A DNA stretch of 64,000 nt from Lachnospiraceae bacterium (GTDB lineage Bacteria; Bacillota; Clostridia; Lachnospirales; Lachnospiraceae): contig JAGBOC010000011.1 of assembly GCA_017634065.1 (NCBI GenBank), forward strand, positions 60,412 through 124,411. The letters are read 5' to 3'. The notes beneath the pieces were generated by a model, which saw only the letters and a program-made list of their open reading frames with translations, did not search any database and was not told the DNA's origin. Shown piece after piece: positions 5,019 through 47,400 of this stretch. Position 1 is the stretch's first letter, and every line of letters begins with the position of its first letter. Position numbers and translations under genes: made by a program.

Positions 5019-6635
5019 GTGCCAAAGAAGAATAAAAATGAAATAGAAATATCAAATGCCATGGATGAAAATGTGTTAAATGATAACACTTCTATATTAG
5101 ATTTGGATAATGATGAAACTAGTGCTAGTGAAGAAAAAAGTGTAAAGAAAAATACAAGTAAGAGGGTTAGTCAAAAAAGTAATTCAGTTAAAAAAACTAA
5201 GCTTACGAAATCCAAGGCAGTAAAGGCTAAAAGTACTGCAAAGACAAAAAGTAAAGTTTCTAAAAATACTAAAAAGAATAGCAGTAAACAAATTCGCAAG
5301 AAGAATGATGATATTTCAACATATAGATCAAGTAGCAAGAAAATAGAAGATGAACTTCTTAAAGTTACAAATATTAAGTCAATTGAGCAGATAAAAAAGC
5401 CAAGAAGGATTGCTCTGATGATTGCTTTTTATGCTGTCGTAGTCATAGGTATTTTAACTTTCATTCTTATAAGATTTAGCAAACCTAAAAAAACTAATTT
5501 GCTTCTTGAAGAGTCAATAAATTATGAGTTTCTGACAGAAGATACTACAAGTAAGAGAATAGTAGAAGAAAGTTCATCTGATAAGATGGATGAAGAGATT
5601 TTAGAAACTATAGATTATAGAGAAAGTTCAAGTGAGATAGAGACAAAGGAAGCAACAGAGAAAACGACAGAAAAAGTGACACAAAAAGCAACGGAAAAAG
5701 TGACAGAGAAGGCAACAGAGAAAGTAACGGAGAAAAAGACAGAAAGAGCTACAGAGAAAAAGATAGAAAAAACAACAGAGCGTAAGACAGAAAGCACGAC
5801 AGAGTCAGCTGACATAAGTAAGAGACTTATGGAACTTACTACAAAGTCAGCAGACTCATATAAGTTAGAGACAGTTGAGAGAGAGACGGAACCAACTATG
5901 AGAGCCTGGCCAGAGAGAAGAACTATCGCAGAAATATTACCAAGATATAAAGATGTGTTATACTCATATCCAACATTTTATCAGATGTCTCTCTCTGAAA
6001 TAGGAGTTATAAATACTGCTCTTACTGAAAATTATGGCATTGCAAAAAATAAACTGTGGGGTGAAGAGATTTCATTTGCAAATAAAGGCTCAAATGGTCT
6101 CGTCTATTTAAACTATACTTATCTTCAGCAATATATTGAAAATTATACAAGTTCCGTAAGACAAGACTATGACAAGCTTAAATTGGCACCATATTATAAT
6201 TATATTATGAATGACAAGTTTCGCTATGACTATAAGACTTATACTACTAATCTTCAATTGAAACTTGACTTTAAGAATGCAAAAAATCAAGGAATGTATT
6301 ATGAGATACCAGCTATTATTTATGAACCGGCTGGAACAAATGTCTCATCAAATGGTATAAATAGGATAGATGTGAGAGTGCTAAAAAAGGCTAAAGTAGG
6401 CTATACCGAGAGTTTTTCACTCACATCACTTCTAGAAGTTCTTGATATAGAATGTCATACTAAACATAATCCATTTTTTGACATAGAGGATGTGATAGGT
6501 ATGAATCCTAAAGCAGTTTCGGACATGATAGGCAGTGGTTTTGATGTCAGATCCTTGATAGAAGATGAGATATTTAACTATGTCTTATTTGACAAAAAAG
6601 GTTATATAACAGCGCTTTATATGCTTAAATCTTAA
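5019..6635 (+). CDS. Hypothetical membrane protein with Lys/Ser-rich N-terminus and TEK-repeat region
   Basis: GTG start. Basic low-complexity N-terminus, one TM ('IALMIAFYAVVVIGILTFILI'), tandem 'ATEKVTEK' repeats (about 5640-5800). Confidence 0.6.
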   Translation: MPKKNKNEIEISNAMDENVLNDNTSILDLDNDETSASEEKSVKKNTSKRVSQKSNSVKKTKLTKSKAVKAKSTAKTKSKVSKNTKKNSSKQIRKKNDDISTYRSSSKKIEDELLKVTNIKSIEQIKKPRRIALMIAFYAVVVIGILTFILIRFSKPKKTNLLLEESINYEFLTEDTTSKRIVEESSSDKMDEEILETIDYRESSSEIETKEATEKTTEKVTQKATEKVTEKATEKVTEKKTERATEKKIEKTTERKTESTTESADISKRLMELTTKSADSYKLETVERETEPTMRAWPERRTIAEILPRYKDVLYSYPTFYQMSLSEIGVINTALTENYGIAKNKLWGEEISFANKGSNGLVYLNYTYLQQYIENYTSSVRQDYDKLKLAPYYNYIMNDKFRYDYKTYTTNLQLKLDFKNAKNQGMYYEIPAIIYEPAGTNVSSNGINRIDVRVLKKAKVGYTESFSLTSLLEVLDIECHTKHNPFFDIEDVIGMNPKAVSDMIGSGFDVRSLIEDEIFNYVLFDKKGYITALYMLKS

Positions 6636-6717
6636 TAGTTTTTTAATATTTTAGAGAGCCAATTTGTTGATTTTTTGTTAATATTATTCTATACTAATAG
6701 ATAGTAAGAGGTGTGAT

Positions 6718-8574
6718 ATGATTAGAAAAGTTTATAATTTTATTATTGCGACTTTAGTGGCTATCATGATGGTGAGCCAGGTAAGTTTTGTATTTGCTGC
6801 AAATGAAAGAGAACTTACTGATGATGAGAAGGCAGCATTCATAGTCCGCGATGAGTGGACTTCTTGGGTTCGTGATTTTACCGCATCTCTTTCTGAACTT
6901 GATAAAAATGCGACATCTAAAATCTATGACAACATGGATTTCTATGATATGCAGTATAGATTTACTGAAAAGTATAAAAAAGTTCCTGAGTATCTTGATG
7001 AGGATGGAAAGCCAACTCAAAAACTTAAGGATATGATAAAGACAAAGAGAAAGGAACTTGCAGGAGCAACTATAAGAGATTATTTGTGCTTCACTTCAAA
7101 TGCAGCAGGTTCTAAAATCTCGTATGCAAAAACTGGGTCAGTGACAACTGATGGTCTTGGTATCTCAACTGATGGAGTTTCATTTGTTGCTTGGGATGGC
7201 TCTGAAAAGACTATAGGTTCAGGTGAAACATTATACATTGTAAATAAAAGAAACTCATTAAGTACTGGTAGTGCTAATTTTCTACACTTTAATATCACTG
7301 GTAATGTATCAGTATCTGGTGACATATCTTCTCTTATAAACTTTAGTGATATATCATCTTTTTCATTTTTTAATTTATTTTCTGGATGCACAGGGCTTAC
7401 TAATGCTGAAGATTTAGTGTTGTCAAAGACAGCTGTTTCTTCGTACAATGGTATGTTTTATAACTGCACTAATTTGACTAGACCACCTGTGTTGTCAGCA
7501 ACTAGTCTATCAGCAAGTTGCTACGATAGTATGTTTGCTGGTTGTACAAATTTAACTTCTGCACCAAAACTTCCTGCAACGACACTTGCTAACGCTTGCT
7601 ATAGAAATATGTTTTCTGCTTGTTCAAGTTTGACAACTGCACCAGATTTACCAGCAACAACATTAGCAAATTCTTGTTATCAAGGGATGTTTAATGGTTG
7701 CTCATCACTTAATTCTATATCACTTGAATGGGAAGGAAACTTCTCTGGTACAGGAGTACCTACAGATGCATTTACAAATTGGGTAAATGGTGTAGCTAAT
7801 AGTGGAACATTCTATTATAGTGGTAGTGCTGATTCTACAGCAGATTCATCATATGGTGCGAGTGCTATGCCTAAAAATAGCACTAATAAATGGACTATAG
7901 GCAGAAATGATTACCTCAGATTCATATCAAGAAAAAATGGGTCACAGGTTGGATACTCATTGCATAACTTAACACGAAATAATATATACTATTCAAAAGA
8001 TAGAGTAACTTGGACACAATGGAATGGTAATTATGTAACTATCGACAATGGTGAAACATTGTATGTACATAATCGTGATAACCAGTTAGCGACAAGTACT
8101 ACTCAGTGTTTAATTTTTAATATGCCAAATTCAGGAGAAATAGAGGTTGCGGGAAATATTATGTCACTTGCCAATTTTAATACTACAGTACCATCAAGTT
8201 GTTTTTATGGAGTATTTGCTGGGGATTCTGGAATTGGAGATGGTTGTGATGCACTTGTAGATGCATCATCTTTAAAATTACCAAGTGCCATTGCTGCTGA
8301 ATGTTATCGAGAAATGTTTAATGGTTGCCGAAGATTGGTATATGGGCCAACATTACCAGCAACAACATTGGCATCAAATTGTTATATGCGCATGTTTCAG
8401 AACTGTACTTCGTTAATTAGTATTAAGCTTGGCTATACTGGATCTTTTGATAACGCATATTTTGCAGGATGGGTTAATAATATTAATACAGTCGGTACAT
8501 TATACTACAATGGCACAGGAACAGTGCGTGGTGGCAATGGTATCCCAACCAACTGGTCAGTAGTAACATACTAG
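6718..8574 (+). CDS. Secreted BspA-like leucine-rich-repeat surface protein, internally duplicated
   Basis: Signal peptide 'LVAIMMVSQVSFVFA'. Repeated 'F.GC..LT..P.LPATTLA..CY..MF..C.SL' units in two half-molecule copies. Confidence 0.7.
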   Translation: MIRKVYNFIIATLVAIMMVSQVSFVFAANERELTDDEKAAFIVRDEWTSWVRDFTASLSELDKNATSKIYDNMDFYDMQYRFTEKYKKVPEYLDEDGKPTQKLKDMIKTKRKELAGATIRDYLCFTSNAAGSKISYAKTGSVTTDGLGISTDGVSFVAWDGSEKTIGSGETLYIVNKRNSLSTGSANFLHFNITGNVSVSGDISSLINFSDISSFSFFNLFSGCTGLTNAEDLVLSKTAVSSYNGMFYNCTNLTRPPVLSATSLSASCYDSMFAGCTNLTSAPKLPATTLANACYRNMFSACSSLTTAPDLPATTLANSCYQGMFNGCSSLNSISLEWEGNFSGTGVPTDAFTNWVNGVANSGTFYYSGSADSTADSSYGASAMPKNSTNKWTIGRNDYLRFISRKNGSQVGYSLHNLTRNNIYYSKDRVTWTQWNGNYVTIDNGETLYVHNRDNQLATSTTQCLIFNMPNSGEIEVAGNIMSLANFNTTVPSSCFYGVFAGDSGIGDGCDALVDASSLKLPSAIAAECYREMFNGCRRLVYGPTLPATTLASNCYMRMFQNCTSLISIKLGYTGSFDNAYFAGWVNNINTVGTLYYNGTGTVRGGNGIPTNWSVVTY

Positions 8575-10813: not shown

Positions 10814-10879
10814 TAAGTTGTAAAGTTAAAACTTTGTAATTATTAAAAGCAAAAAATCATTCTATTTTGTATCATAATA

Positions 10880-11009
10880 AGTTGAAAAGTAGCCAGAATT
10901 TGTGCAAAAAATAGCAAAATATCATCCAGATTTATGTCAAAATTAGTTAAAACATCGTCCGAATTTGTGTCAAAATTAGTTGAAAAGTCGTCCGAATTTG
11001 TGTATAATC
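10880..11009 (+). repeat. Four tandem ~32-33-nt promoter-like direct repeats
   Basis: Units begin at 10880, 10913, 10945 and 10978. Consensus is about AGTTGAAAAGTCGTCCGAATTTGTGTCAAAATT. Confidence 0.85.
10980..11008 (+). promoter_or_regulatory. Consensus sigma-A-type promoter within the last repeat unit
   Basis: TTGAAA (10980-10985), 17-nt spacer, TATAAT (11003-11008), 8 nt before the ATPase ATG region. Confidence 0.6.
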
Positions 11010-11015
11010 AGGAGT

Positions 11016-12314
11016 ATGAAAAGAGAAATATTAGAAAAACTAGCTAATTGGAAGAATAGTAAAAATAGAAAGCCCTTGATTCTGAATGGTGCGAGGCAAG
11101 TTGGAAAGACCTATATACTTAAAGAGTTTGGGGCAAAATACTTTGATAATGTTTGCTATATAGACTTTAGTAGTAATGAGAGTTACAAAAATATTTTTGA
11201 AAAAGATTTTAATATTGAGCGAATAATTACTGAATTTAATGCAATTACTTCAACAAAAATAATGAGAGGCAAAACTCTTATTATTTTGGATGAAATACAA
11301 GAGGCTCCAAGAGCAATTACTTCGCTAAAATATTTTTGCGAAAATGAAAATGAATATGTAGTTGCATGTGCAGGTTCATTACTTGGAGTTGCAATACATA
11401 AAAATACATCATTTCCAGTTGGAAAAGTAAACTTAATGACAATGTTTCCTCTGACATTTATTGAGTTTTTAGAAGCAATGGGCAAAGAAGGATTAGCAAA
11501 ATTGCTTCAAGATGGCAATTACGAGAGTATAAATGATTTATCAGAAGATTATAATGCACTTCTAAAACAATATATAATAGTTGGAGGAATGCCAGAAGTT
11601 GTAAAGGAATTTGTAGAGAACAAAGATTTTACAGAAGTAAGAAATATACAAAAAGAAATTCTTAAAATGTATGATAATGATTTTAGTAAACACATAATTA
11701 ATCAAAATGAGTTATTAAAAACAAGGCAGGTGTTTACTACAATTCCAAGAGAATTAGCAAAAGAAAATAAAAAGTTTGTTTTGAGAGATATGGAGAAAGG
11801 TGCGAGACTCTCAAAATATGAAGTTGCTATTCAATGGCTTGTTGATGCTGGTGTGGTTTACAAAATACACAATGTTGATAAAATTGGAATACCACTATCT
11901 GCTTATAAAAAAATGGAAAACTTCAAAATCTATTTAGTCGATGTAGGATTATTAGGTGCAATGAGCAATCTTGATTATGCAGTGATTATTGAAGAAAATA
12001 GATTATTTGTTGAATTTAAAGGTGCACTAGCAGAACAATATATTTGTCAGGAATTAATGTATAGGTATCAAGATGAATTGTTTTTTTATTCAGATAGCAA
12101 ATCTGAAATGGAAGTAGATTTTATGATTCAGTCAAGAAATGAGCCTATCCCAATAGAAGTTAAATCAGGCAGTGTAGTTCAAGCAAAAAGTTTAAAACAA
12201 TATATAAAGAAGTATAAACCAAGTTATGCAGTTAGATTTAGTTTACTTAAGAACAAATATGATGAAACTATAAAAAATTATTCACTTTGGTCGGTGCCGA
12301 ATCAAATATTATAA
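11016..12314 (+). CDS. AAA+ ATPase with C-terminal DUF4143 / PD-(D/E)xK-like module
   Basis: Walker A 'GARQVGKTY', Walker B 'LIILDEIQ', C-terminal 'EVDFMI....PIPIEVKSG'. Start at ATG 11016 behind 'ggag'. Confidence 0.8.
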   Translation: MKREILEKLANWKNSKNRKPLILNGARQVGKTYILKEFGAKYFDNVCYIDFSSNESYKNIFEKDFNIERIITEFNAITSTKIMRGKTLIILDEIQEAPRAITSLKYFCENENEYVVACAGSLLGVAIHKNTSFPVGKVNLMTMFPLTFIEFLEAMGKEGLAKLLQDGNYESINDLSEDYNALLKQYIIVGGMPEVVKEFVENKDFTEVRNIQKEILKMYDNDFSKHIINQNELLKTRQVFTTIPRELAKENKKFVLRDMEKGARLSKYEVAIQWLVDAGVVYKIHNVDKIGIPLSAYKKMENFKIYLVDVGLLGAMSNLDYAVIIEENRLFVEFKGALAEQYICQELMYRYQDELFFYSDSKSEMEVDFMIQSRNEPIPIEVKSGSVVQAKSLKQYIKKYKPSYAVRFSLLKNKYDETIKNYSLWSVPNQIL

Positions 12315-12353
12315 ATATAAATTGTTAGATAAAACATTAAAGGGGAAATAATT

Positions 12354-13131
12354 ATGGATATGTTAGCAAAATATAAAGTAGTAGCAAAAAGATACGAGGA
12401 TATGCTTATGAATACTGAAGGCGCTTTAGGCGTAATGCACCTGGGGGGGGGTGGCAAGAGAACGCGCTGATGAACATTCTGACATTGACATTGCTGTATT
12501 TTCTTATGACAAACTTGATATTAAAGAAGGAGAGCAATTATCTGAAGAAGGATATGATGTTGAAATTTTTAATATTTGCATAAATAAAGGATTTGATGAC
12601 TGGGATCCTATCAAAAAAGAAGCATATGCTGAAGGAATTATTGCAAGAGATACAAATGGTATTGTTAAAGACTTTATGGATAAAGCTCTTTTTTATGACG
12701 AAGAGTTTAGATGTAGGTATTTAGCAAAAAATATATTTGATATTGCTTGGCACGGTTGGATTTATACACCATTTAGGAATCAAAATGTAAAAGGATATAA
12801 TTGGATTTTGCCAAATAACTTATGGCATCAAAGAGGAGAAATAAGTAATGATTACTATTTAACGAATTGGTGTATCAATAGTTTTATAGAATTGTTATTT
12901 GTAGTAAATAGAAAGTGGACTCCTGATTTTAAATGGAGATGGATTCGCTCTTGTCACTTAGAAAAATTACCAAGTAATTATAAAGAAAATATGAGTTATT
13001 TATTGTTTGAACCTTGGAATGAAGATACTTGGCTACAAAAGGGAAAGGTTTTCCAAAGGATGATTGATGAAGTAATACCGATGGTAATTGATGACATGCC
13101 TGAAGACTGGTATAACTTATTGGAGCACTAA
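12354..13131 (+). pseudogene. Pol-beta-type nucleotidyltransferase-domain gene interrupted by a +1 frameshift at a G9 tract (or phase-OFF state)
   Basis: ATG 12354 with RBS 'aagggg'. The frame stops at TGA 12468. The downstream frame (ORF 12451..13131) reads 'ARERADEHSDIDIAVF'. Removing one G from G9 (12443-12451) fuses them to '...GALGVMHLGGVARERADEHSDIDIAVF'. Confidence 0.75.
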
Positions 13132-13149
13132 TAGTTGAATGGAGTTTAT

Positions 13150-16100
13150 ATGGAAACAAATAAAGTATTCATTTCTCATCAACATAATAATGATGATATA
13201 GCAAATAAAGTTTTGTCAGCATTAGAGAATAGTGGTTTAGAGTGTTTTGTTGATCATATGCATATTCCTGACGGTAAGAATTGGAGTGACAGAATTGAAA
13301 AGGAATTAACCGAATGCAAATATTTTATTTTGATAAACTCTGAATATACTGTAGGGTCAAATGGTTGTTATGTTGAATTAGATAGAGCAAAACAAGCAAA
13401 AAAACAAATTATTATATTAAAACTTGGCGACTTCAAGGAAGATTATAAGTGGGACGTTTTGCTTACTGCAGTTCAGGTGACACAAATTACAGAAGATAGA
13501 GTATATGATATTGTCAAGAATAAAGTTGTACCTAGTTTCATAGGGTCACAGCAAAAAAATGAAGTAAATAAAATGACCATAGATGAGTTTAACAATGTAG
13601 AGATTGATAAACTGAAAAACGATTCTTCTGAAACATATTTGAGAACATCTTTTAATGATTTTGTTGATTTAGCAATTAAGGGAAATGAGAGATTATCAAT
13701 TATTAAATATAAACAAAATTGTGAGTATGAAGATAATCTATACACAAAATTAATAAATATAAAGAATGATGAAGTAAAATTCATCTATTGCAACTCAATA
13801 GCATCTGTTGATTTATCAATTAATTTGATTGCTGAACAAAAACAGGAAGAGGTTTATTATTTATTTATAAAGAGCATTAATGAAATTGATGGACTAAATA
13901 AGATACATAGCTTAATTCAGAATCATAAAAATATAAACTTTATAATTGGAATTAATTTAGAATCATGGATAGATTTTAATAACGAATTTAATGATGCCAG
14001 GTGTCTTGTTTTTGATAAAATGTCTAATAAAGAAACGATAGAATATTTAAAACAGTTAGAAAAGGAAGAAGGGCTAAATATAGGTGGCAATTTACAAACA
14101 ATATTTTTGTTACCAGCGCTTCATGATTTTAGGACTCCAAAGTTACTAAAGATTATTATTAATTACATAAAGAAAAATTATTCGTCTTACAATGATTCGG
14201 ATTTTAATTTGACAGATATTTTTGATTTTTATGATAAATATTTAGAAACCAATGTTAAAGCAAATGAAGCATTTGAAGAATTGATTAGTATTGCTATAAA
14301 AAAGAAATTCAATGTTTTTACTCTTACAGAATTTGCAGATAATAAAAATGTATTATTCGAGAATGAATTAGTGACAAAAAAGGGGATTAATTATAAAATA
14401 GGAAATGAAGAGTATTTTCTACATAGAGTTGCTATGCATATTTTTACAACATATGGTTCTAATTACGAGGAATCATCAGTATTAGCAATAAAGGATTCTA
14501 TTCCTTATTATATATATTTATATTATAGCGAAACTCATGAATTAATACTCGACAAATTTAAATTGGATGAGCAAAATATTAGTAAACTATTACAATTATT
14601 CATTAGTGAGGAAGAAGCATTTACTAGTATAGTTTTATCAAGAAAATATGACACAGAAATTGTAAAACTGCTAAATGAAATTAATGAAAAAGGATTGTAT
14701 AATATTTCTGAAAGAATAATTAGTATTTTTGAAAAAGAAGGTATAGACCCAAGTGAAGAACTTGATTATTTATCTGCTAAAATTGAGATGCATTATAATA
14801 TGACAGATGAATTACTTGAAACTGATGCTGAATTTGGTAATGTATTGGCTGAAAAGGCGTATATTTGTTATCAAACAGATAATTTTACTAAAGCAGGTGA
14901 ATTATTTGATAAAGCAATTGACAAAATGCTTGATGCAAATCAAACTAATTATAAACTTATATTTAATTATATAGAGTATCTATTTGATTTTGGTGACTAT
15001 AACAAAATTGAAGAATTACTTAATTATGTAGATAATGAAGACATTAAGTCAAGTGATGACTTGCTAATTAAGTATTATTATAGTCAGGCTGAATTAGATG
15101 GATATCGTTTGGAGATAGATTCATGCCTTTATAATTTAGAGAAATGCATATCTTTGTGCGAAAAGAATGTCAATATTGGTAAAATGCAGATTTATTATGG
15201 TGAAAAAGGATATTACTTAATGCTTAAAGGTAAATATGACGAATCTAAAAGATATAGTAGAATTAATTTGGAAATAGCAAAATCTTTAGGTAATTTTAAT
15301 GGAATGGTGGTGGCATCTATTAATCTTGCAATGTGCGAGTTAGCTTTACAAAACTTTGAACAAATGTATAAGTTAGTTTCATATGCCTTAGTATATGCAA
15401 AAAATGTTAGAAATTACTGGAGATATAGCGAGAGTTTTATGTATCTGTTACTATTGATAAAGGACAAGGATAAATTAGAAAACATTGATGAAATAATACC
15501 AAATGTAGATTCTGATATATTTAGAACATATATATATTTGTTATATTCATATTATTACTATATAAAAAAAGATATAGCACTTGCTAAAGAAAAAATTAAT
15601 ATTGCTATAAATTATTCAAATCAGATTGAAAATGTACAATTAAAAGAGATGGTAAAGGCATGGTCTAATTACATAAGCACTGAAAAAGTTGGAAATATTG
15701 ACAATGAGTTAAGACAATATATGAATGATGTGATTGAATCATTAAATGCTTTAAGAATTGAAGAAAAAACATTTACTTTGCCACTAGAGTTTTATTTGTA
15801 TAAAGAACTAAATAGTGAACGACTAAAATATAGAATTATGAAAATTTCTGATATACCAGATATATTTGAATATTCTAGTAATAGTGAATGTACTAAATAT
15901 GTATTATTTGATAAGCACAAATCTTTTAATGATACTGCAAAGTTTGTTGCAAATGTATATGATGAAAATAATACTGGAACATATATGTGTTGGGCAGTAG
16001 AGCATAGAGAAGACAAGAAAGTTATTGGCACAATTGATTTGATATTAAGTGAAAGATATAATGAAATAGAAATAGGATATATATTTAATAAGAATTATTG

Positions 16101-16320
16101 GAGAAAAGGTTACGGAAGAGAGTCAGTAAAGACAATCGTTGACTATTGTAAAAATTGTTTGGGGCTCAAAAGTTTATTAGGTGTTGCTTTTGAAGTAAAT
16201 GAAGGATCAAGAAAATTGTTAGAATCTACAGGTTTTGTTGAATTTGAAAAAATAGAAAATTATCATAATAAAATATTACTTAAATCAAAAAATGGTGTAG
16301 CATACAGGCTTTTATTATAA
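13150..16320 (+). CDS. TIR-domain - helical/TPR scaffold - GNAT acetyltransferase fusion protein (1,056 aa)
   Basis: N-terminus 'KVFISHQH...GLECFVDHMHIPDGKNWSDRIEKEL.ECKYFILINS......GCYVELDRA' (TIR_2-like). C-terminus 'IGYIFNKNYWRKGYGRESVKTIVDYC...EVNEGSRKLLESTGF' (RimJ/RimL-type GNAT). No Walker A seen. Start at ATG 13150 after 'ggag'. Confidence 0.75.
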   Translation: METNKVFISHQHNNDDIANKVLSALENSGLECFVDHMHIPDGKNWSDRIEKELTECKYFILINSEYTVGSNGCYVELDRAKQAKKQIIILKLGDFKEDYKWDVLLTAVQVTQITEDRVYDIVKNKVVPSFIGSQQKNEVNKMTIDEFNNVEIDKLKNDSSETYLRTSFNDFVDLAIKGNERLSIIKYKQNCEYEDNLYTKLINIKNDEVKFIYCNSIASVDLSINLIAEQKQEEVYYLFIKSINEIDGLNKIHSLIQNHKNINFIIGINLESWIDFNNEFNDARCLVFDKMSNKETIEYLKQLEKEEGLNIGGNLQTIFLLPALHDFRTPKLLKIIINYIKKNYSSYNDSDFNLTDIFDFYDKYLETNVKANEAFEELISIAIKKKFNVFTLTEFADNKNVLFENELVTKKGINYKIGNEEYFLHRVAMHIFTTYGSNYEESSVLAIKDSIPYYIYLYYSETHELILDKFKLDEQNISKLLQLFISEEEAFTSIVLSRKYDTEIVKLLNEINEKGLYNISERIISIFEKEGIDPSEELDYLSAKIEMHYNMTDELLETDAEFGNVLAEKAYICYQTDNFTKAGELFDKAIDKMLDANQTNYKLIFNYIEYLFDFGDYNKIEELLNYVDNEDIKSSDDLLIKYYYSQAELDGYRLEIDSCLYNLEKCISLCEKNVNIGKMQIYYGEKGYYLMLKGKYDESKRYSRINLEIAKSLGNFNGMVVASINLAMCELALQNFEQMYKLVSYALVYAKNVRNYWRYSESFMYLLLLIKDKDKLENIDEIIPNVDSDIFRTYIYLLYSYYYYIKKDIALAKEKINIAINYSNQIENVQLKEMVKAWSNYISTEKVGNIDNELRQYMNDVIESLNALRIEEKTFTLPLEFYLYKELNSERLKYRIMKISDIPDIFEYSSNSECTKYVLFDKHKSFNDTAKFVANVYDENNTGTYMCWAVEHREDKKVIGTIDLILSERYNEIEIGYIFNKNYWRKGYGRESVKTIVDYCKNCLGLKSLLGVAFEVNEGSRKLLESTGFVEFEKIENYHNKILLKSKNGVAYRLLL

Positions 16321-16338
16321 TTAAGTTGTATGGTAAAG

Positions 16339-16464
16339 GTTAGAACAACCATTGTAGGGTCGAAGATTAGAACAACCATTGTAAGTGTGAAAATTAGAGC
16401 AACCATTGTAAGTGCGAAAATTAGAGAACCATTGTAGGGGCGAAGGTTTCCGAGCCCGAAAGGA
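16339..16464 (+). repeat. Tandem 27-nt repeat array ending in a GTAG-type element and CCCGAAAGGA
   Basis: Exact 27-nt periods at 16339, 16366 and 16393. Fourth unit (16420-) ends 'gtaggggcgaaggtttccgagcccgaaagga', 4 nt before the xpt ATG. Confidence 0.9.
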
Positions 16465-18531: not shown

Positions 18532-18621
18532 GGAGATAGGAGGGTAGCTGGTGCGCCCCGCGGTCTTCAACACCGTTGTGAAAGTTAAACTTTCGGCTAG
18601 GTTCGATTCCTAGCGTCTCCG
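18532..18621 (+). tRNA. selC: tRNA-Sec (anticodon UCA)
   Basis: Anticodon stem-loop 'gcggt-CTTCAAC-accgt' with TCA at 18667-offset-free position 18567-18569. Long variable arm 'gaaagt-taa-actttc'. T-arm 'ctagg-ttcgatt-cctag'. Sits directly upstream of selA. No encoded CCA. Acceptor pairing is imperfect, so the ends are +/- 2 nt. Confidence 0.85.
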
Positions 18622-18666
18622 TTTATTAATTAGTTGAGACCAAAGAAAATTAGTAATCTATTTTAG

Positions 18667-18694
18667 AGTTCTTTGGTTTCAAAGAACTTTTTTA
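18667..18694 (+). terminator. Rho-independent terminator after selC
   Basis: 'agttctttg-gttt-caaagaact' followed by T6. Confidence 0.75.
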
Positions 18695-18742
18695 TTTATA
18701 AGAGTTATAAAAAGAGGTCAAAGTATCATTTAGTTTTAAATT

Positions 18743-20134
18743 ATGGAAAAGAATGAAATCTTAAGAAAAATCCCACAAGTTGATGAAATCCTTAAAGATA
18801 AGGAGCTATCTTCTATTGTAGAGAATACGCCACATGATTTTCTAACTAATTGTATAAGAGAAGTCATAGTTGACACAAGAGCAAATGTTTTAAATGGCAT
18901 AGAGAAAGATATAGATAGAAAAAAACTGATAGAAAGAATTGTTTCTAAAGTAGAAAAGAAATCAAAACAGAGTTTAAGAAGAGTTATAAATGCAACTGGC
19001 ACAGTCCTTCACACAAATCTTGGAAGGTCGGTTATATCAAAGTCTGCTACAGAAGCAATGATAAATGTCGCATATAATTATTCAAATCTTGAATATGATT
19101 TAAGGCATGGTGAAAGAGGCGATAGACAATCGCACATAGAAAAGTTAATTATGGAACTTACTGGTTGTGAGTCAGCAATGGTTGTAAATAACAATGCTGC
19201 AGCCACTATTATCACTCTTGCCACACTTGCTTATGAGAAAGAAGTAATAATTTCAAGAGGTGAACTTATAGAAATTGGTGGTTCTTTTAGAATACCTGAT
19301 GTAATGTCAGAAAGTAGAGCTATTCTAAAAGAAATTGGCACGACAAATAAGACAAAAATATCTGATTATAAAAAAGCATTTGATGAAGAAAAAACTGCCG
19401 CAATAATGAAAGTACATACGAGTAATTATAAAGTAGTAGGTTTTACTGAAGAAGTGAAATTAAAAGAACTCATGCCACTTGGTCGTGAATATAGTATTCC
19501 TGTAATATACGATATGGGAAATGGACTCTTTGTTGACTTAAATGAATACGGCATTGATGAACCAACTGTTCCTAATCTTGTGAAAGAGGATGCAGATGTG
19601 ATACTTTTTAGTGGCGACAAACTTCTTGGAGGCCCTCAAGCAGGAATCATAATCGGTAAGGCAAAGTATATTGATAAGATGAAGAGACATCCTCTTGCAA
19701 GAGCATTTAGAGTTGACAAGTTTACTATTGCTGCTCTTTCTGCTACTCTTTTTGAATACTATGATGTAAAGAGAGCAAAGAAAAATATACCAATTTTGCA
19801 AATGATTACATGCAGTAAAAAAGAACTAAAAGTTAAAGCTGAAAAAATAGCTGAAATGTTAAAAGCAAAAGTTAATGAAGAAGTCACTATAGATGTAGAA
19901 GATATAAAAGACCAAGTAGGTGGTGGAACTGCACCAGATGTATTCCTTGATGGATATGCAGTAACTATCATTTCAAAGAAAATTGCATCAGAAAAGATTG
20001 AAAGACAACTTCGCTCTCTTGATGTGCCAATCATAGTCAGAGTGGCACACGATAAGATATATGTTGACATAAGAACAGTTATGGAAGAAGACATTGAATT
20101 ATTAGTCAATGAACTTTTGAAAACACTACGATAA
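18743..20134 (+). CDS. selA: L-seryl-tRNA(Sec) selenium transferase
   Basis: 'RVINATGTVLHTNLGR', 'FSGDKLLGGPQAG' (PLP-lysine block), 463 aa. Confidence 0.93.
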   Translation: MEKNEILRKIPQVDEILKDKELSSIVENTPHDFLTNCIREVIVDTRANVLNGIEKDIDRKKLIERIVSKVEKKSKQSLRRVINATGTVLHTNLGRSVISKSATEAMINVAYNYSNLEYDLRHGERGDRQSHIEKLIMELTGCESAMVVNNNAAATIITLATLAYEKEVIISRGELIEIGGSFRIPDVMSESRAILKEIGTTNKTKISDYKKAFDEEKTAAIMKVHTSNYKVVGFTEEVKLKELMPLGREYSIPVIYDMGNGLFVDLNEYGIDEPTVPNLVKEDADVILFSGDKLLGGPQAGIIIGKAKYIDKMKRHPLARAFRVDKFTIAALSATLFEYYDVKRAKKNIPILQMITCSKKELKVKAEKIAEMLKAKVNEEVTIDVEDIKDQVGGGTAPDVFLDGYAVTIISKKIASEKIERQLRSLDVPIIVRVAHDKIYVDIRTVMEEDIELLVNELLKTLR

Positions 20135-20151
20135 ATAACTTCAACTCAACC

Positions 20152-20256
20152 GTAGGGGTGAGCACTGCGAACCAGAGTGTAGATGTGAGCATTGCGAGTT
20201 AAATGTAGTGGTGAGCACTTTGAACCAATTGTAGGGGTGAGCACTGCGAACCCGAA
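20152..20256 (+). repeat. Four tandem GTAG-type units (periods 27, 26, 26 nt) filling the selA-selB spacer
   Basis: GTAG at 20152, 20179, 20205 and 20231. The outer units are intact 'gtaggggtgagcactgcgaacc', the inner two degenerate. Confidence 0.9.
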
Positions 20257-20264
20257 AAATATAT

Positions 20265-22220
20265 ATGCAAAATATAATTATAGGAACAGCAGGTCATGTG
20301 GATCATGGCAAGACCTTTCTAATCAAAGCTCTTACAGGTTTTGACACAGACCGCTTAAAAGAAGAAAAGAAAAGAGGCATAACCATAGAAAATGGCTTTG
20401 CGAATCTCCCAAATGATTTAGGACTTCATTTGGGAATTATTGATGTTCCTGGACATGAAAAGTTTGTAAAGAATATGCTTGCAGGTATAGGCGGGATTGA
20501 TTTGGTACTTCTCGTCATATCACTTGAAGAAGGTATAAAGCCACAGACTATAGAACATTTTGAAATCATAAAATCACTTGGTATAAAGAAAGGCATCATT
20601 GTATTTACGAAACTTGATAGCGAGAATATAGTTGATTTTGATACATTAAAAAGTCAAGTGAAAGATTTAGTGAAAGGCTCTAACCTTGAAAATGCAAAAA
20701 TCATACCTGTGTCAAGTTTAACTGGTAAGAATATAGATGTTCTGAAAGAAGAGATATTTTCTCTTGTGAAAGAGATTGGCGAAAGAAATAGCAATAAGGA
20801 ACTTACAAGACTTCCTATAGATAGAGTATTTACTATGGAAGGCTTTGGGACAGTTATTACTGGTACTTTGATGGAAGGAAAAATAGACACTGGCGATGAA
20901 CTTATGGTGTATCCTTCACAAAAAATAGTTAAGGTTAGACAAATTCAGTCGCATGGAAGTGTAGAACCATCAGCACTTGCAGGTCAGAGAACAGCAATTA
21001 ATTTACTAAATGTGAAAAAAGAAGAACTTAATCGAGGAGATGTCCTCGCAACTAAATCTTCTATAATACTAAGTGAGATGATAGACTGCAAAGTGACAAT
21101 GTTTAAGTCTGCAAAGAGAAAACTAAAAAATGGCGAAAGAGTTCATTTTAATTATGGGTCAAAGCAGACAGAAGCAAATGTAAAAGTCATAAGTGATGAG
21201 TATGTGCAGTTTAAGTTTGAATCCCCTATACCAATAAAAAGAGATGACAAATATATTATAAGATTCATAAGTCCAGCTGAAACCTGCGGTGGAGGCATAG
21301 TTTTAAATATTGCCACTAAAAGATATAAGATGGAAGATGGCATTGCACTCAACCATTTTAAGGCACTTGATGGCAATGATGACAAAAGTATACTTCTTGA
21401 GATGATAAATGACTCAAGTGTTGATTTCCCAGACCCAGTTTTTTTGTCAAAGAAAATGAACCAGGGGCTAAAGGATATAAAAGAAATCTTAAAGCAACTT
21501 TTAGGTACTGATAGCATTGAAGTAATCAATCCAACAAGGTCTAAAAATGAAGAGATAAATGATAATGCAATCATACTTTCACATAAGTTTTATGAGGGAG
21601 CAAAAAAATATATACTTGATATACTAAATAAATATCATAGGGAGAATCCTATATCAAAGGGCTTAAAAAAGGAAGAATTAAAGAGCATATTATTTAAGAG
21701 ATATAATAAAGTTGGCGACACAAAACTTGAAGATTTACTCAATTATATGATAGGTAAAAATGTGCTAAAGCAAATAGATGACCTTATTTCTTCATTTGAA
21801 TTTGATGCAGTTCTTGATGATAAAAAATCAAAAGAAAAAATCGCGATTGAGAAAAAATATCTTGATGCTTCGTATAATGTCCCACTTACTCAAGATGTAG
21901 TTACGGAGTTTTCTACTATAAAAGATGGCAAGAATAATAAACTTGAGATAAGACAGATGATAGTTGATTTAGCAAAAGAAGGAAAACTCATAAAACTTTC
22001 AAATGATTACTACATTCATAAAGATAATTTTGATAAAGTTTTAGCAGTAGTAGATAAACTTTTTGAAAATAGTGATAGGATAACAATGACAGAACTTCGT
22101 GATAAACTTGAAACTTCAAGAAAATATGCTATACTTATCATAGATTATCTGGATCAGAAGAGAATAACAAAACTTGCTGGAGAATATAGAATGAAAGGAG
22201 ATAGATATGGCAAAGTATAA
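20265..22220 (+). CDS. selB: Selenocysteine-specific translation elongation factor
   Basis: G-domain 'GTAGHVDHGKT', 'DVPGHEKF', 'TKLD'. Long winged-helix C-terminal extension, 651 aa, adjacent to selA. Confidence 0.93.
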   Translation: MQNIIIGTAGHVDHGKTFLIKALTGFDTDRLKEEKKRGITIENGFANLPNDLGLHLGIIDVPGHEKFVKNMLAGIGGIDLVLLVISLEEGIKPQTIEHFEIIKSLGIKKGIIVFTKLDSENIVDFDTLKSQVKDLVKGSNLENAKIIPVSSLTGKNIDVLKEEIFSLVKEIGERNSNKELTRLPIDRVFTMEGFGTVITGTLMEGKIDTGDELMVYPSQKIVKVRQIQSHGSVEPSALAGQRTAINLLNVKKEELNRGDVLATKSSIILSEMIDCKVTMFKSAKRKLKNGERVHFNYGSKQTEANVKVISDEYVQFKFESPIPIKRDDKYIIRFISPAETCGGGIVLNIATKRYKMEDGIALNHFKALDGNDDKSILLEMINDSSVDFPDPVFLSKKMNQGLKDIKEILKQLLGTDSIEVINPTRSKNEEINDNAIILSHKFYEGAKKYILDILNKYHRENPISKGLKKEELKSILFKRYNKVGDTKLEDLLNYMIGKNVLKQIDDLISSFEFDAVLDDKKSKEKIAIEKKYLDASYNVPLTQDVVTEFSTIKDGKNNKLEIRQMIVDLAKEGKLIKLSNDYYIHKDNFDKVLAVVDKLFENSDRITMTELRDKLETSRKYAILIIDYLDQKRITKLAGEYRMKGDRYGKV

Positions 22221-44421: not shown

Positions 44422-47400
44422 ATGGTATTCAGAGTAAAAAAAGTTTTTGCAATTTTATTATGTATGACAATGGTGTTTTCAAGCACATTGCCACATTTTG
44501 CAAATGATGATTTAGCCATTGAGTTAGAGAACGTTGCGCAATCTGAAACTACTGTGTCAGAGACTGAATCTGATAGTGATAATTATGAGAATAATAATTT
44601 AGAAAGTGGCATAGAAGCAGAAAGTGATACAGAAGCAGAAAGTGGCACAGAGGCGGAAAGTGATACTGAAACAGAGAGTGATACTGAAACAGAAAGTGAC
44701 ACTGAAACAGAGAGCGATACTGAAACAGAAAGTGACACTGAAACAGAGAGTGACACCGAAACAAAAAGTGACACTGAAACAGAGAGTGGTTCAGTAACAG
44801 AAAGTGCCACGGAATCATCAACTGATCTTGAAGCAAGTTCTACAGGAGAGACTAATAATTCAGAAAAAACAATAGTTGATGAAGAAAAGATTGCTACAGA
44901 TAGTGAGATGGAGTTAAATGAGTCCCCATCTTATGATGAGATGAATGTAGCAACCTATAGTGAGATTATAGATGCTTTTGAAACTGAAAATGTAGCAACA
45001 GTTAGTGAGATTAATGCAGTTGATTATGAGATACAAGGTCTTGGTTTTATAAGGCCCGATTTTACAAGCCCAGTTGTTCAAGAGCTTCCATTAAGAAGAG
45101 GAATAAGACTTTTTGGCACATCAGATCCAGGTGCAAGTTATGACCCAAGAAGTGAGACATTATCATCTGGTCTTTCAAGATTACCAGCCGTTAGAAACCA
45201 GGGTGGTTTTGGAACTTGTTGGGCTTTCTCTACACTCGGAATGTTTGAGACATATTTAAGACTTCATAATTTAGTTAGTACAGAAGAAGATTCTAATTTG
45301 AGTGAAGCAGCTCTAACATATTTTATGCAATATGGACTTTATGAAAAAGAAGTAACTAAAAATGGATCAAGTAACATTGATAAGCCAGGTGTCGAAGGAT
45401 TTGATTATTCATATATTAATAATAGGTCAAGACTTGGACAAATTGGTGGAAATCAGGCAATGGGACTTTTAACTATGTCATCTTATATAGGTGCTGTAAA
45501 AGAAGATACTAACTCATCATATAATCGTATGAGTAATATTGCTGCAAATCCAAGTAGTCTTGATGGCAGTTATGCATTTAATAAAAACTCATTTGTCCTT
45601 AAAAATGCATTATTCCTAAATAAAACTAATCGAAATATGATTAAACAAGCTATACTTGATAATGGTTCGGTAGGTATATCATATTTTGCTGGTCGTGCGA
45701 CTCCTACTGATGGTGAAGACGAAGATGCAAGTTATGTCCATACTGCAAATGGGGAGTATTATTACTATACTGATAAGACGTCTGCTCAAGCAAATCATGC
45801 GATTCTAGTTGTAGGTTGGAATGATGATATTCCAAAAGAAAACTTTTATGTAGGCGGGAGTAATTACGCAGCAAGTTCTACAAAGGCAGCTTCCAATGGT
45901 GGATGGCTTTGCAGAAATAGCTGGGGTGGCTCTGGAAATGGAACAAATGGATATTTTTGGATGTCATATGAAGAACCAAGTTTAGATGATAATGTGTATA
46001 CTGTAGAGGCAATGTCTGCTGATACGTATGAATATAATTATCATTATGATACTACTGCATGTACTTCAGCTTATGCTCATAGTGTTGAAGATATGCCTAT
46101 GTATTATGCAAATATATTTAAGGTAAGTGATGACATAGATCAAAAACTTGATGCGGTTAGTGTAGCATTTAATAGTGCAGATGTAGAGTTTGATATTTTA
46201 GTATATACAAAGGACACTGCTATGACAAATCCTACAGATGGAGTAAAGAAGTTTGAGGAGTCATACACAAGACAGTCTGCTGGTATATATACCATTGAAC
46301 TTAGCAGCAGTGTTACTTTAAGAAAAGGTACTTATTTTTCTGTTATTTTCAAAGCAAAAAATACATCAACAAATTATGGAAGTATGAATAAAACTATATT
46401 TATGTTCTGTGATGAGAGTAGCACAGGAACATATAGTTTTGTAAATGCTGCATCAGCTGGACAAAGTTTCTATGGTTATGTTAGTGGTTCAAACTTCGTG
46501 TGGGATGATGTTAATAGTTCTGAACATCCTAATTGGCCATCTGGTTATGATTTAAATGTTTCCTCAAATGGCAAAGGTAGAAATTATAGAATTAAAGCAC
46601 TTACAAATGCTTATCCAACTGTCACAGTTTCATTTGCGGAAGATGCAGGAGCGGTGGCTACAAAGGAGCAGAGAGTTGGCATAGGTCTTGAGACTAAACT
46701 TGATGAAAATACATTCACAAAAACTGGATATAAGTTTAAGAGATGGAATGACGGAAGTGATACTTACTATAACGATTGTGCAAATATAACAACTGATATA
46801 GATATAACATTATATGCAGAGTGGGAGCCAATTACTTACAATATAACATATGATTTAGATGGTGGCACACTCCCATCAGAGGCTTTGAATCCTTTACCAA
46901 TGACTTATGATAGTCCAGTGACATTACCAACACCTACAAAAACTGGCTATGATTTTGATAACTGGTATAGTGATGAGACAACTGTCTACGATGGTACAGA
47001 TAATTTATCAACAACAGATGGCAGTTCAGTAACAATAAAAGCAAAGTGGAATGAGCATGAATATACTATAACTCTCCATGAAAATAATGGAACATATGCA
47101 AGTGATTACGATGTTCCTTCATCAAGATTATATACTGCATCATCAACACTTCCAACAAGTGCAAATATAACTAGAGTTGGATATACATTTGATGGTTGGT
47201 ATGAAAATGAAGAATTAACTGGGACGAGAGTCACAAGTATTTTAGCGCGGACAGCATCAAATAAAGAATATTGGCTTAAATGGAATGAAAACACGTATAC
47301 TATTACTTATAATGAAAATGGTGGATCATATGCAAGTGGATATACCACAAGACCTACATCAAGAACCTATACTGACACTGCTTCATTACCAAATGAAACT

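What the first reader, a model, noticed from the sequence alone, without database searches (positions are those of the whole stretch)
12443..12451. G9 homopolymer splits a nucleotidyltransferase gene: candidate slipped-strand phase switch (or sequencing error)
ATG 12354 opens a frame ('MDMLAKYKVVAKRYEDMLMNTEGALGVMHLGGGWQENA*') that stops at 12468. The +1 frame continues 'VARERADEHSDIDIAVF...' to 13131. Deleting one G from the nine Gs at 12443-12451 gives 'GVMHLGGVARERADEHSDIDIAVF', the canonical G-[GS]-x-AR-x(n)-SDIDI minimal NTase motif. The result would be a 258-aa protein. A 9-nt G run is very unusual in DNA this AT-rich and sits exactly at the catalytic motif, which is typical of contingency loci. 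The switch would gate the gene just upstream of the TIR protein.
Basis: seen in the sequence. Interest (0 to 1): 0.65.

Follow-up and report, generated by a model that had tools for sequence, protein, structure and literature searches.

The report
Poly-G on/off switch in NTase gene
A run of nine Gs breaks a nucleotidyltransferase gene in this gut Lachnospiraceae genome, and because the same run is 8, 9, 10, 11 or 12 Gs long in otherwise identical DNA from other samples, it is most likely a real hypermutable on/off switch, here caught in the "off" position, for one gene of a two-gene module that looks immune-related.

Summary
The G9 run at 12443-12451 is real. It is the only G or C run of 6 or more in 64 kb, against about 0.025 expected. 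Removing one G gives a protein that exists intact in public assemblies. Across the window and 14 public contigs of the same locus the tract is G8 (4), G9 (4), G10 (5), G11 (1) and G12 (1). Six copies with no SNP over the 0.8-6 kb they share carry G9, G10, G11 and G12. With the tract reset to G8, all 15 copies read through with no other defect, and the 7 alleles give pN/pS of 0.00-0.09 for most pairs. So this is neither a decaying pseudogene nor, very probably, an assembly error. It behaves as a slipped-strand contingency locus, and the window carries an OFF allele. The tract is specific to this lineage and built from rare codons (CTG GGG GGG GTG). The closest relatives have TTA GGT GGA ATA. 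The protein has a kanamycin-nucleotidyltransferase-like fold. It is always followed by a roughly 1060-aa protein with TIR, degenerate STAND-like, TPR and GNAT regions, in varying genomic contexts. Function is inferred, not shown. This is a well-supported new member of a known kind.

The parts
12443..12451 (+). Poly-G tract, G9 in this window. This is an OFF length. G8 and G11 are in frame; G9, G10 and G12 are not.
   Evidence: the only G/C run of 6 or more in 64 kb, with 0.025 expected. G8-G12 in 14 public contigs of the same locus.
12354..13131 (+). Whole frameshifted nucleotidyltransferase gene. It is 258 codons when the tract is G8. The fold is KNTase/ANT(4')-like, with an N-terminal pol-beta NTase core and a C-terminal helical DUF4037-type domain.
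   Evidence: One search gives the repaired ORF; an intact 258-aa protein at about 99.6% identity (1 difference, E116D) exists in public assemblies (P0001). Pfam hits are weak: Polbeta, NTP_transf_2 and DUF4037. The AF2 model has pLDDT 96.9. Foldseek top hits are 1kan, 6nmk and 6un8 at TM about 0.6.
12354..12470 (+). 5' fragment translated in the G9 state: 38 aa, ...HLGGGGKRTR*. It ends before the catalytic DxD (residues 43-45 of the intact protein).
   Evidence: P0046, identical peptide called in other G9 contigs.
12451..13131 (+). 3' part of the gene in the +1 frame. Gene callers report it as a 226-aa ORF from GTG. It lacks helix 1, strand 1 and the GG motif, and the GTG has no properly spaced ribosome-binding site, so it is probably not expressed.
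   Evidence: P0034. The judgement about expression is an inference from the sequence.
12340..12345 (+). Shine-Dalgarno-like AAGGGG, 8 nt upstream of ATG 12354.
   Evidence: Read directly.
13150..16320 (+). Conserved downstream partner gene, 1056 aa. Domains: TIR_2 (about residues 6-94 on this numbering, 11-99 as reported for the TTG-start ORF), a STAND-like alpha/beta plus helical module with no Walker A, TPR (about 680-760 and beyond), and a RimJ/SpeG-type GNAT (about 891-1030). It has its own GGAG at 13141-13144.
   Evidence: Pfam, PDB profile search, AF2 model at pLDDT 71, Foldseek top hit 6mfv STAND+TPR at E 2.6e-10 plus Avs4 and Avs5, and no GK[ST] anywhere. It follows the NTase in L016, L021, L023-26 and L047-49.
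11016..12314 (+). Upstream neighbour, an AAA_14/DUF4143 ATPase that matches PADLOC candidate PDC-S01. It lies in the same low-GC insert but is not a conserved partner of the NTase.
   Evidence: E 5.6e-169. It is absent next to the NTase in L015-L049.

Best explanation
The G tract is a genuine hypermutable simple-sequence repeat, a contingency locus, in the 5' part of a nucleotidyltransferase gene of an uncultured ruminant-gut Lachnospiraceae bacterium. Slipped-strand mispairing during replication adds or removes Gs. Lengths of 3n+2 (G8, G11) keep the 258/259-codon frame open and are ON. G9 and G12 stop translation at codon 39 or 40, and G10 stops it at codon 77. All of these stops fall before or just after the catalytic DxD, so no enzyme is made and the state is OFF. 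The window carries an OFF allele (G9). The gene encodes a KNTase-fold pol-beta NTase with an intact GG...DxD...E signature. Throughout its family it is the upstream partner of a TIR / degenerate STAND-like / TPR / GNAT protein, an NLR-like architecture typical of conflict and anti-phage proteins. I infer that the switch lets a clonal population hold both NTase-plus and NTase-minus cells, which hedges the cost and benefit of this module. OFF alleles are the majority while the partner gene stays intact. The NTase is therefore not an indispensable antitoxin or guard of the TIR protein. More likely it is an activating or accessory component, or an independently acting modifying enzyme. Shown here: the tract, the frames, the length polymorphism among clonal copies, purifying selection, the fold and the conserved gene pairing. 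Inferred: reversibility, switching rate, expression consequences and any defence role.
For: 1. Tract length is G8 x4, G9 x4, G10 x5, G11 x1 and G12 x1 across the window and 14 public contigs from about a dozen sample accessions.
2. Haplotype A (window, L005, L006, L007, L008, L011) has 0 substitutions over the 0.8-6 kb each pair shares, yet carries G9, G10, G10, G9, G12 and G11. Haplotype B (L001, L002, L004, L009) also has 0 substitutions, with G8, G8, G8 and G9. The tract therefore changes far faster than any other site. This fits the 100-10,000-fold excess quoted for SSR phase-variable loci (PMC11868660).
3. With the tract set to G8, all 15 copies give an uninterrupted 258-codon ORF. The 7 distinct alleles have pN/pS of 0.00-0.17 in 18 of the 19 pairs with synonymous differences, and 0.00-0.09 in 16 of them, at pS up to 0.10. 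L014-WIN (0.64) and L012-L014 (0.43) are higher but each rests on a single synonymous difference.
4. The intact protein P0001 (one conservative difference, E116D, from the repaired window sequence) is on 6 contigs, and a G11 form (259 aa, extra Gly) also exists.
5. The tract is lineage-specific. The closest relatives (85-89% aa) have TTA GGT GGA/GGT ATA or CTT GGT GGC ATA. More distant relatives have stable G6.
6. The tract uses the rarest synonymous codons: GGG is 7% of Gly codons and CTG is 1.9% of Leu codons. None of 96 other Gly-Gly pairs in the window is GGGGGG. Five of the 5-6 differences from relatives in these 12 nt are changes to G, against about 20% gene-wide.
7. The data are largely PCR-free Illumina NovaSeq reads assembled per sample (PMC8199421; the link to the sample label is inferred).
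9. The partner is intact in both ON and OFF contigs with pN/pS about 0.1.
Against: No raw reads were available, so heterogeneity within a sample and the error profile at this tract were not measured. Every length call is an assembler's consensus. Some ENA and Logan contigs may be the same sample assembled twice, so the number of independent observations is below 15. The ON fraction (5 of 15, or about 7 of 21 contig records) equals the one-third expected if tract length drifts neutrally, so there is no sign of selection for ON within populations. No second poly-G/C tract occurs in the 64-kb window, so a genome-wide set of phase-variable loci (a phasome) is not demonstrated. Persistence of the tract across alleles is not in itself significant, because only about 3 synonymous sites are involved. 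The function of the NTase and its coupling to the TIR protein rest on gene order and fold only. PADLOC has no model for the pair.
Confidence: 0.75

Rival explanations
1. The tract is hypermutable but not adaptive. An incidental homopolymer keeps knocking out and restoring a gene of marginal value, or a gene on its way to loss, and the population gains nothing from bet-hedging.
For: The ON fraction is about one third, as expected for neutral drift of length. Only one such tract lies in 64 kb. OFF alleles dominate many samples while the partner gene remains intact.
Against: Strong purifying selection acts on the ORF across 7 alleles at pS up to 0.10, and no secondary lesion occurs in 15 copies. 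A gene being lost would accumulate such lesions. The tract was assembled from 5 G-ward substitutions into the rarest codons, and all alleles retain it.
Confidence: 0.13
2. Sequencing or assembly artefact. The true tract has one fixed length, most simply G8, and the G9-G12 calls, including the window's, are homopolymer miscalls.
For: Homopolymers of 8 or more are error-prone, and poly-G is a known weak point of two-colour Illumina chemistry (general knowledge). All length calls are consensus calls from metagenome assemblers.
Against: Five different lengths span 4 nt across many samples and at least two assembly pipelines, ENA and Logan. Consensus errors of +2 to +4 nt in short-read de Bruijn assemblies are not expected. 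Libraries in the main source study were PCR-free. Gene callers found the same split ORFs repeatedly on contigs up to 212 kb. The G6 tracts in relatives are invariant.
Confidence: 0.06
3. Recoding. The G9 allele is still expressed because RNA-polymerase slippage or +1 ribosomal frameshifting on the G run restores the frame, so the frameshift is a decoding signal or expression attenuator rather than an OFF state.
For: Long homopolymers can cause transcriptional slippage, and GGG GGG offers perfect re-pairing of tRNA-Gly in the +1 frame (general knowledge; not tested here).
Against: In-frame G8 and G11 alleles exist in the same haplotypes, so the genome does not need recoding. Three different out-of-frame lengths would need different shifts. 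No stimulatory element (slow codon, downstream structure) was identified. Efficient slippage is documented mainly for A/T runs.
Confidence: 0.04

Closest known systems
Poly-G/C simple-sequence-repeat contingency loci of Campylobacter jejuni, Neisseria, Haemophilus and Helicobacter (translational phase variation)
   Same: An intragenic, 5'-proximal homopolymeric G tract of 8-12 nt in an AT-rich genome. Length differs among near-identical strains. In-frame and out-of-frame lengths give ON and OFF. The gene is otherwise intact and under purifying selection (background from PMC11868660 and PMC6321876).
   Different: The host is an uncultured commensal Lachnospiraceae from ruminant gut, not a mucosal pathogen. 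The target is a cytoplasmic NTase paired with a TIR/STAND-like protein, not a surface structure or an R-M methyltransferase. No switching rate has been measured, and no phasome is evident in the 64 kb available.
Phase-variable restriction-modification systems (phasevarions) as phase-variable defence genes
   Same: A stochastic SSR switch sits in one enzymatic component of a multi-gene conflict or defence-type locus (PMC11868660).
   Different: There is no methyltransferase or nuclease here. A defence role for the NTase/TIR module is only inferred from domains and context.
Kanamycin nucleotidyltransferase ANT(4') and LinB/Lnu-type antibiotic nucleotidyltransferases (PDB 1kan, 6un8, 4ebk, 3jyy)
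   Same: Two-domain fold with a pol-beta NTase core and a helical KNTase_C/DUF4037-like domain, at TM about 0.5-0.6 and E of 1e-5 to 1e-7. The GG...DxD signature is shared.
   Different: Sequence identity is only 12-15%. There is no significant sequence hit to any PDB chain, and Pfam hits fall below gathering thresholds. The strict linkage to a TIR-TPR-GNAT gene is not a feature of resistance genes. The substrate is unknown.
Hailong anti-phage system (HalB NTase plus HalA ion channel)
   Same: A two-gene operon with a KNTase-like NTase and an effector. HalB is among the fold hits (E 2.5e-5).
   Different: TM is only about 0.33. The partner is a TIR/STAND-like/GNAT protein, not a membrane channel. 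Loss of HalB activity is toxic (PMC13434031), whereas here NTase-OFF alleles are the majority with the partner intact, which argues against a Hailong-like guard logic.
Antiviral STAND (Avs) / bacterial NLR-like proteins with an N-terminal TIR effector and C-terminal TPR sensor
   Same: The partner protein has the domain order TIR, then STAND-like alpha/beta plus helical module, then TPR. Foldseek hits include 6mfv (STAND+TPR), Avs4 and Avs5.
   Different: No Walker A is present anywhere. There is an extra C-terminal GNAT domain and an obligatory NTase neighbour. The model has only moderate confidence (pLDDT 71) and TM scores are low.

Membership tests
SSR-mediated phase-variable (contingency) locus | Simple-sequence repeat within the ORF or promoter, long enough to slip (homopolymer of about 7-8 or more) | tested here: met
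   G9 at nt 90-98 of the ORF.
SSR-mediated phase-variable (contingency) locus | Repeat-number polymorphism among closely related strains or populations while flanks are identical | tested here: met
   G8-G12 across 15 copies. There are 0 SNPs over the 0.8-6 kb shared within haplotype A (G9, G10, G11, G12) and 0 within haplotype B (G8, G9).
SSR-mediated phase-variable (contingency) locus | Repeat number determines the reading frame (ON and OFF lengths), and the gene is otherwise intact | tested here: met
   G8 and G11 give 258 and 259 aa. G9, G10 and G12 truncate. All 15 copies are intact once reset to G8, and pN/pS is 0.00-0.09 for most allele pairs.
SSR-mediated phase-variable (contingency) locus | High-frequency, reversible switching within a clonal lineage, with a matching change in protein expression or phenotype | not testable with these tools
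   This needs raw reads, single-colony amplicon sequencing and reporter fusions.
Pol-beta superfamily nucleotidyltransferase, KNTase/ANT(4')-like two-domain type | hG[GS]-x(9-13)-Dh[DE]h signature plus a third acidic residue | tested here: met
   L30, G31, G32, A34, R35, D43, I44, D45 and E70 are invariant in 36 family members.
Pol-beta superfamily nucleotidyltransferase, KNTase/ANT(4')-like two-domain type | C-terminal helical substrate-binding domain (KNTase_C/DUF4037 clan) and overall fold match | tested here: met
   AF2 pLDDT is 96.9. 1kan, 6nmk and 6un8 match at TM 0.57-0.62 and E 2e-7 to 2e-6. The DUF4037 Pfam hit is below threshold (19.9 bits against 22.1) in the query but is precomputed in several homologues.
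Pol-beta superfamily nucleotidyltransferase, KNTase/ANT(4')-like two-domain type | Aminoglycoside or lincosamide nucleotidylation activity (resistance) | not tested
Identity of 12-15% to resistance enzymes does not allow inference.
Hailong (HalA/HalB) | NTase encoded with the HalA transmembrane ion-channel effector | tested here: not met
   The partner is a TIR/TPR/GNAT protein. HalB fold similarity is weak, with TM about 0.33.
Type VII toxin-antitoxin MntA/HepT (MNT-HEPN) | Small MNT antitoxin paired with a HEPN RNase toxin. NCBIfam MntA cut-off is 60 bits. | tested here: not met
   The MntA model scores 20.7 bits. There is no HEPN partner. OFF alleles are tolerated with the neighbour intact.
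Thoeris | ThsB-type TIR protein together with a ThsA effector (SIR2 or TM, with SLOG or Macro) | tested here: not met
   Only the TIR domain matches ThsB models (E 1e-9), and ThcB4 scores 40 bits against a 220-bit cut-off. No ThsA-like gene is in the locus.
CBASS | cGAS/DncV-like CD-NTase plus an effector with a cyclic-nucleotide sensor domain | tested here: not met
   CdnC structures match only at E 0.03-0.3 with prob 0.38 or less. No SAVED or STING domain is in the partner.
Avs / STAND NTPase immune receptors | Functional STAND NTPase with Walker A and B motifs between the effector and TPR sensor | tested here: inconclusive
   Foldseek top hit is 6mfv STAND+TPR at E 2.6e-10, with Avs4 and Avs5 also hit. 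However, no GK[ST] is present, pLDDT is 71, TM values are low, and no NTPase Pfam domain is found.

The most novel reading that the evidence does not exclude
The KNTase-like NTase and the TIR / degenerate-STAND / TPR / GNAT protein form a previously undescribed two-gene anti-phage or conflict system. In one Lachnospiraceae lineage its NTase component has evolved a poly-G contingency tract. If so, a non-R-M, NLR/TIR-type immune module would be switched on and off stochastically by slipped-strand mutation in a commensal gut Firmicute. That would be bet-hedging of immune autotoxicity or cost, visible directly in metagenomes.
Probability: 0.3. Interest if true: 0.72.

Novelty: new member of a known kind. 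Interest (0 to 1): 0.55.

Why it matters
Slipped-strand phase variation is textbook biology for a handful of mucosal pathogens, where it controls surface structures and restriction-modification systems. It has hardly been documented in uncultured commensal Clostridia, or for TIR/NLR-type modules. This locus shows that such a switch can be recognised and validated from public metagenome assemblies alone, using clonal flanks, variable tract length and purifying selection on the repaired ORF. It also supplies a natural genetic experiment. NTase-OFF cells with an intact TIR partner are viable and common. That already constrains how the pair can work: the NTase is not an essential antitoxin or guard. 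For annotation, the gene should be recorded as phase-variable and not as a pseudogene or as two ORFs.

Tried and rejected
1. An exact-pattern scan of GTDB species representatives for the tract flanks found nothing. A single-protein related-loci scan also found nothing. No same-species genome was found among the GTDB species representatives for this locus, so no genome-wide phasome could be examined.
2. A profile scan of viral contigs found no relative, so there is no evidence that the module is phage-borne.
3. A sequence-profile search of the PDB with the NTase family gave no meaningful hit. The top hits, TAF1 bromodomains, are spurious. Only the fold comparison was informative.
4. PADLOC has no model for the NTase or the pair; only faint PDC-S09 hits appeared.
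5. The promoter/terminator scan of 10.7-16.7 kb found fewer promoter-like sites than shuffled sequence and no useful terminator, so operon structure could not be settled.
6. Distant NTase relatives at 21-26% identity (L027-L034) lack the large partner gene, so the pairing is specific to the close family.
7. The homologue search for the partner protein returned only 6 clusters because of the word-index limit.
8. I considered the internal GTG (12451) as a genuine alternative start and rejected it. The product would lack the GG motif and the first helix and strand, and the G run abuts the GTG with no spacer for a ribosome-binding site.

Full report
**Observation**

The nine Gs are at 12443-12451, exactly as reported. 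They are the only G or C homopolymer of 6 or more in the 64-kb window (33.5% G+C). The next longest G or C runs are 5 nt. A first-order Markov model of the window predicts 0.025 G/C runs of 9 or more.

- ATG 12354, preceded by AAGGGG at 12340-12345, opens a 38-codon frame that ends at TGA 12468-12470.
- The +1 frame continues from GTG 12451 to the stop at 13129-13131.
- Removing one G fuses the two frames into 258 codons reading ...GVMHLGGVARERADEHSDIDIAVF....
The G9 frame reads GGGGKRTR*. WQENA belongs to the G10 frame, which runs on to codon 77.

**Is the frameshift real biology?**

A search with the repaired protein found an intact 258-aa protein (P0001). It differs from the repaired window sequence by one conservative residue (E116D) and lies on six public contigs. 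Its 90% cluster also holds 226-aa 3' fragments, 38- and 39-aa 5' fragments, and a 259-aa form with an extra glycine.

I fetched DNA for 14 contigs of the same locus. All share the synteny hrcA, HAD, AAA_14/DUF4143, NTase, TIR protein, phosphoribosyltransferase. Tract lengths, including the window, are:

| Tract length | Copies | Frame |
|---|---|---|
| G8 | 4 | ON |
| G9 | 4 (one is the window) | OFF |
| G10 | 5 | OFF |
| G11 | 1 | ON |
| G12 | 1 | OFF |

I then aligned up to 3 kb on each side of the tract.

- Six copies (window, L005, L006, L007, L008, L011) have zero substitutions over the 0.8-6 kb they share. Their tracts are G9, G10, G10, G9, G12 and G11.
- A second haplotype lies 81 SNPs away (L001, L002, L004, L009). 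It also has zero internal differences, with G8, G8, G8 and G9.

The tract is therefore the only variable site in about 6 kb of clonal DNA and has changed at least three times in haplotype A. That matches the 100-10,000-fold local hypermutation that defines SSR phase-variable loci (review PMC11868660).

Most samples carry the label XIEF21-1. I take this to be the ruminant gastrointestinal survey of Xie et al. 2021, which used PCR-free libraries, NovaSeq 150-bp reads and per-sample assembly (PMC8199421). The link between the label and the paper is my inference.

Consensus-level errors of up to 4 nt in such data are implausible. However, I could not see reads, and some ENA and Logan contigs may be the same sample assembled twice.

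**Pseudogene or maintained gene?**

With the tract reset to G8, all 15 copies translate without any other stop or frameshift. The 7 distinct alleles differ mostly at synonymous sites. pS reaches 0.10, and pN/pS is 0.00-0.17 in 18 of the 19 pairs with synonymous differences (0.00-0.09 in 16 of them). Two pairs that rest on a single synonymous difference give 0.43 and 0.64.

The downstream partner gene is intact in both ON and OFF contigs, with pN/pS about 0.1.

**Origin of the tract**

The 36-member family alignment has invariant L-G-G-x-A-R...A-D...S-D-I-D, so the tract encodes the conserved Gly-Gly of the NTase signature. The DNA at this site in relatives is:

| Relatives | Protein identity | Sequence at the site |
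|---|---|---|
| L047, L048, L049 (closest) | 85-89% | TTA GGT GGA ATA, TTA GGT GGT ATA, CTT GGT GGC ATA |
| Christensenellaceae-type and bioreactor relatives | 56-61% | CTT GGG GGG ATA or TTG GGG GGA ATC (G6, invariant among copies) |
| A Bacilli MAG | 66% | TTA GGT GGT ATT |

- The window lineage has CTG GGG GGG GTG. In the window's own genes, GGG is 7% of Gly codons, CTG is 1.9% of Leu codons and GTG is 12% of Val codons. None of 96 other Gly-Gly pairs is GGGGGG.
- Five of the 5-6 differences from the closest relatives in these 12 nt are changes to G. Only about 20% of differences gene-wide are changes to G.
- The run was therefore built by directional substitution in one lineage, and all seven alleles have kept it.
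- This fits selection for mutability. I do not regard it as proof, because the comparison is post hoc and few synonymous sites are involved.

**What the gene is**

- Pfam gives only sub-threshold hits to Polbeta, NTP_transf_2 and DUF4037. NCBIfam gives a weak MntA hit of 20.7 bits against a 60-bit cut-off. No PDB chain matches by sequence.
- An AlphaFold2 model from the family alignment is very confident, with pLDDT 96.9.
- Its best structural matches are kanamycin nucleotidyltransferase/ANT(4') (1kan, 6nmk, 6un8, 4ebk; TM 0.5-0.62; E 2e-7 to 8e-6).
- Further matches are an uncharacterised NTase (3c18), LinB (3jyy) and, more weakly, Hailong HalB (TM about 0.33, E 2.5e-5).
- DUF4037 has been classed with the inactive HEPN-like C-terminal domains of aminoglycoside NTases (PMC3710099).

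The protein is thus a two-domain, probably active pol-beta NTase of unknown substrate.

**Context**

The organism is a Lachnospiraceae. The best match for a 614-aa marker protein is 87%, to Lachnospiraceae bacterium UBA3866.

The NTase stop is 18 nt upstream of a 1056-aa gene that has its own GGAG. That partner protein has:

- an N-terminal TIR_2 domain;
- a TPR region;
- a C-terminal RimJ/SpeG-type GNAT domain;
- between TIR and TPR, an alpha/beta plus helical module in a moderate-confidence model (pLDDT 71).

The whole-protein Foldseek top hit is a STAND-TPR protein (6mfv, E 2.6e-10), with Avs4 and Avs5 also listed. The protein contains no Walker A motif.

The same NTase and large-protein pair recurs in L016, L021, L023-26 and L047-49, with different flanking genes. 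In L047 it sits among an SLFN/AlbA_2-type gene, a separate TIR_2 gene and small GNAT genes. In the window the pair lies in a low-GC stretch (25-29% against about 33%), next to an AAA_14/DUF4143 ATPase that matches PADLOC candidate PDC-S01. No phage contig carries it.

All of this points to a mobile, conflict- or defence-type two-gene module. None of it demonstrates function.

**Mechanism**

Shown:
- tract length sets the frame;
- G8 and G11 are ON, and G9, G10 and G12 are OFF;
- OFF products end before, or soon after, the DxD catalytic residues.

Inferred:
- replication slippage makes the change frequent and reversible, so clonal populations contain both states;
- the window is an OFF variant.

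OFF alleles are the majority (10 of 15 copies) while the TIR partner stays intact. The NTase therefore cannot be an indispensable antitoxin or a Hailong-like guard, whose loss is toxic (PMC13434031). It is more likely an activating or accessory component, or an enzyme that acts independently.

**Rivals**

- Non-adaptive hypermutable homopolymer: confidence 0.13.
- Assembly artefact: confidence 0.06.
- Recoding by transcriptional or ribosomal slippage: confidence 0.04.

**Comparison and novelty**

The locus meets every computationally testable criterion of an SSR contingency locus: the tract, length polymorphism among clonal copies, frame dependence, and an otherwise intact gene under selection. 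Switching rate and phenotype remain untested.

It is not a member of Hailong, MntA/HepT, Thoeris or CBASS, because the partner or signature tests fail. The Avs/STAND relationship of the partner is inconclusive.

I rate it a new member of a known kind. It is a well-documented poly-G phase-variable gene in an unusual host and an unusual gene class.

The more novel reading, at probability about 0.3, is that this is an undescribed NTase plus TIR-NLR-like defence system placed under stochastic control.

Noticed in passing
window 451-589, 16336-16445, 20152-20252; motif also at 4221, 27877, 34233, 38699, 39779, 60802, 60948: A strand-specific intergenic motif GTAGGGG(CG) occurs 14 times on the + strand and once on the - strand. 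It usually lies just after gene ends and sometimes forms short tandem arrays with periods of 18, 26-27 and 66 nt. It could be a REP-like or terminator-associated repeat family. One array directly follows the TIR-GNAT gene.
   Followed up: partly
window 10851-11003: A 33-nt unit repeated 4.7 times lies just upstream of, and overlaps, the mechanical TTG start (10980) of the AAA_14/DUF4143 ORF. Public gene calls give 432 aa, which places the start at 11016.
   Followed up: partly
window 18532-22220: Selenocysteine machinery: tRNA-Sec (ARAGORN and Rfam RF01852), followed by a SelA homologue (Pfam SelA on the equivalent gene in L001) and a 651-aa ORF that may be SelB.
   Followed up: partly
window 10980-16320: The three-gene stretch (AAA_14/DUF4143, NTase, TIR-GNAT) has lower G+C (25-30%) than the rest of the window (about 33-34%). 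It lies between housekeeping genes (hrcA/HAD and a phosphoribosyltransferase), which suggests an acquired island.
   Followed up: partly
L047 2962-12755: In a relative at 87% identity, the NTase/TIR-GNAT pair sits in a different neighbourhood. That neighbourhood has an SLFN/AlbA_2-HATPase_c_4 gene, a separate 362-aa TIR_2 protein immediately followed by a 182-aa GNAT, and another GNAT downstream. TIR and GNAT therefore recur together as separate genes as well as fused.
   Followed up: partly
window 13150-16320 (protein residues about 180-290): The STAND-like alpha/beta module of the partner protein has no Walker A (no GK[ST] anywhere) and no obvious Walker B. If it is STAND-derived, it is probably NTPase-dead.
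   Followed up: partly
window 5019-8574 and 44422-49389: Large repeat-containing, probably surface, proteins. Two have faint LRR_5 hits on their equivalents in L001. A 1655-aa ORF carries an in-frame 18/36-nt tandem repeat at 44601-44814 and a GGT/GGA-rich repeat at 48768-48824. They were not examined for length variation.
   Followed up: no
L016, L021, L023-L026 (NTase codons 30-33): More distant family members carry a G6 run at the same Gly-Gly codons (CTT GGG GGG ATA or TTG GGG GGA ATC), and all copies seen are intact. This fits G6 being below the slippage threshold and acting as a possible evolutionary precursor of the long tract.
   Followed up: yes
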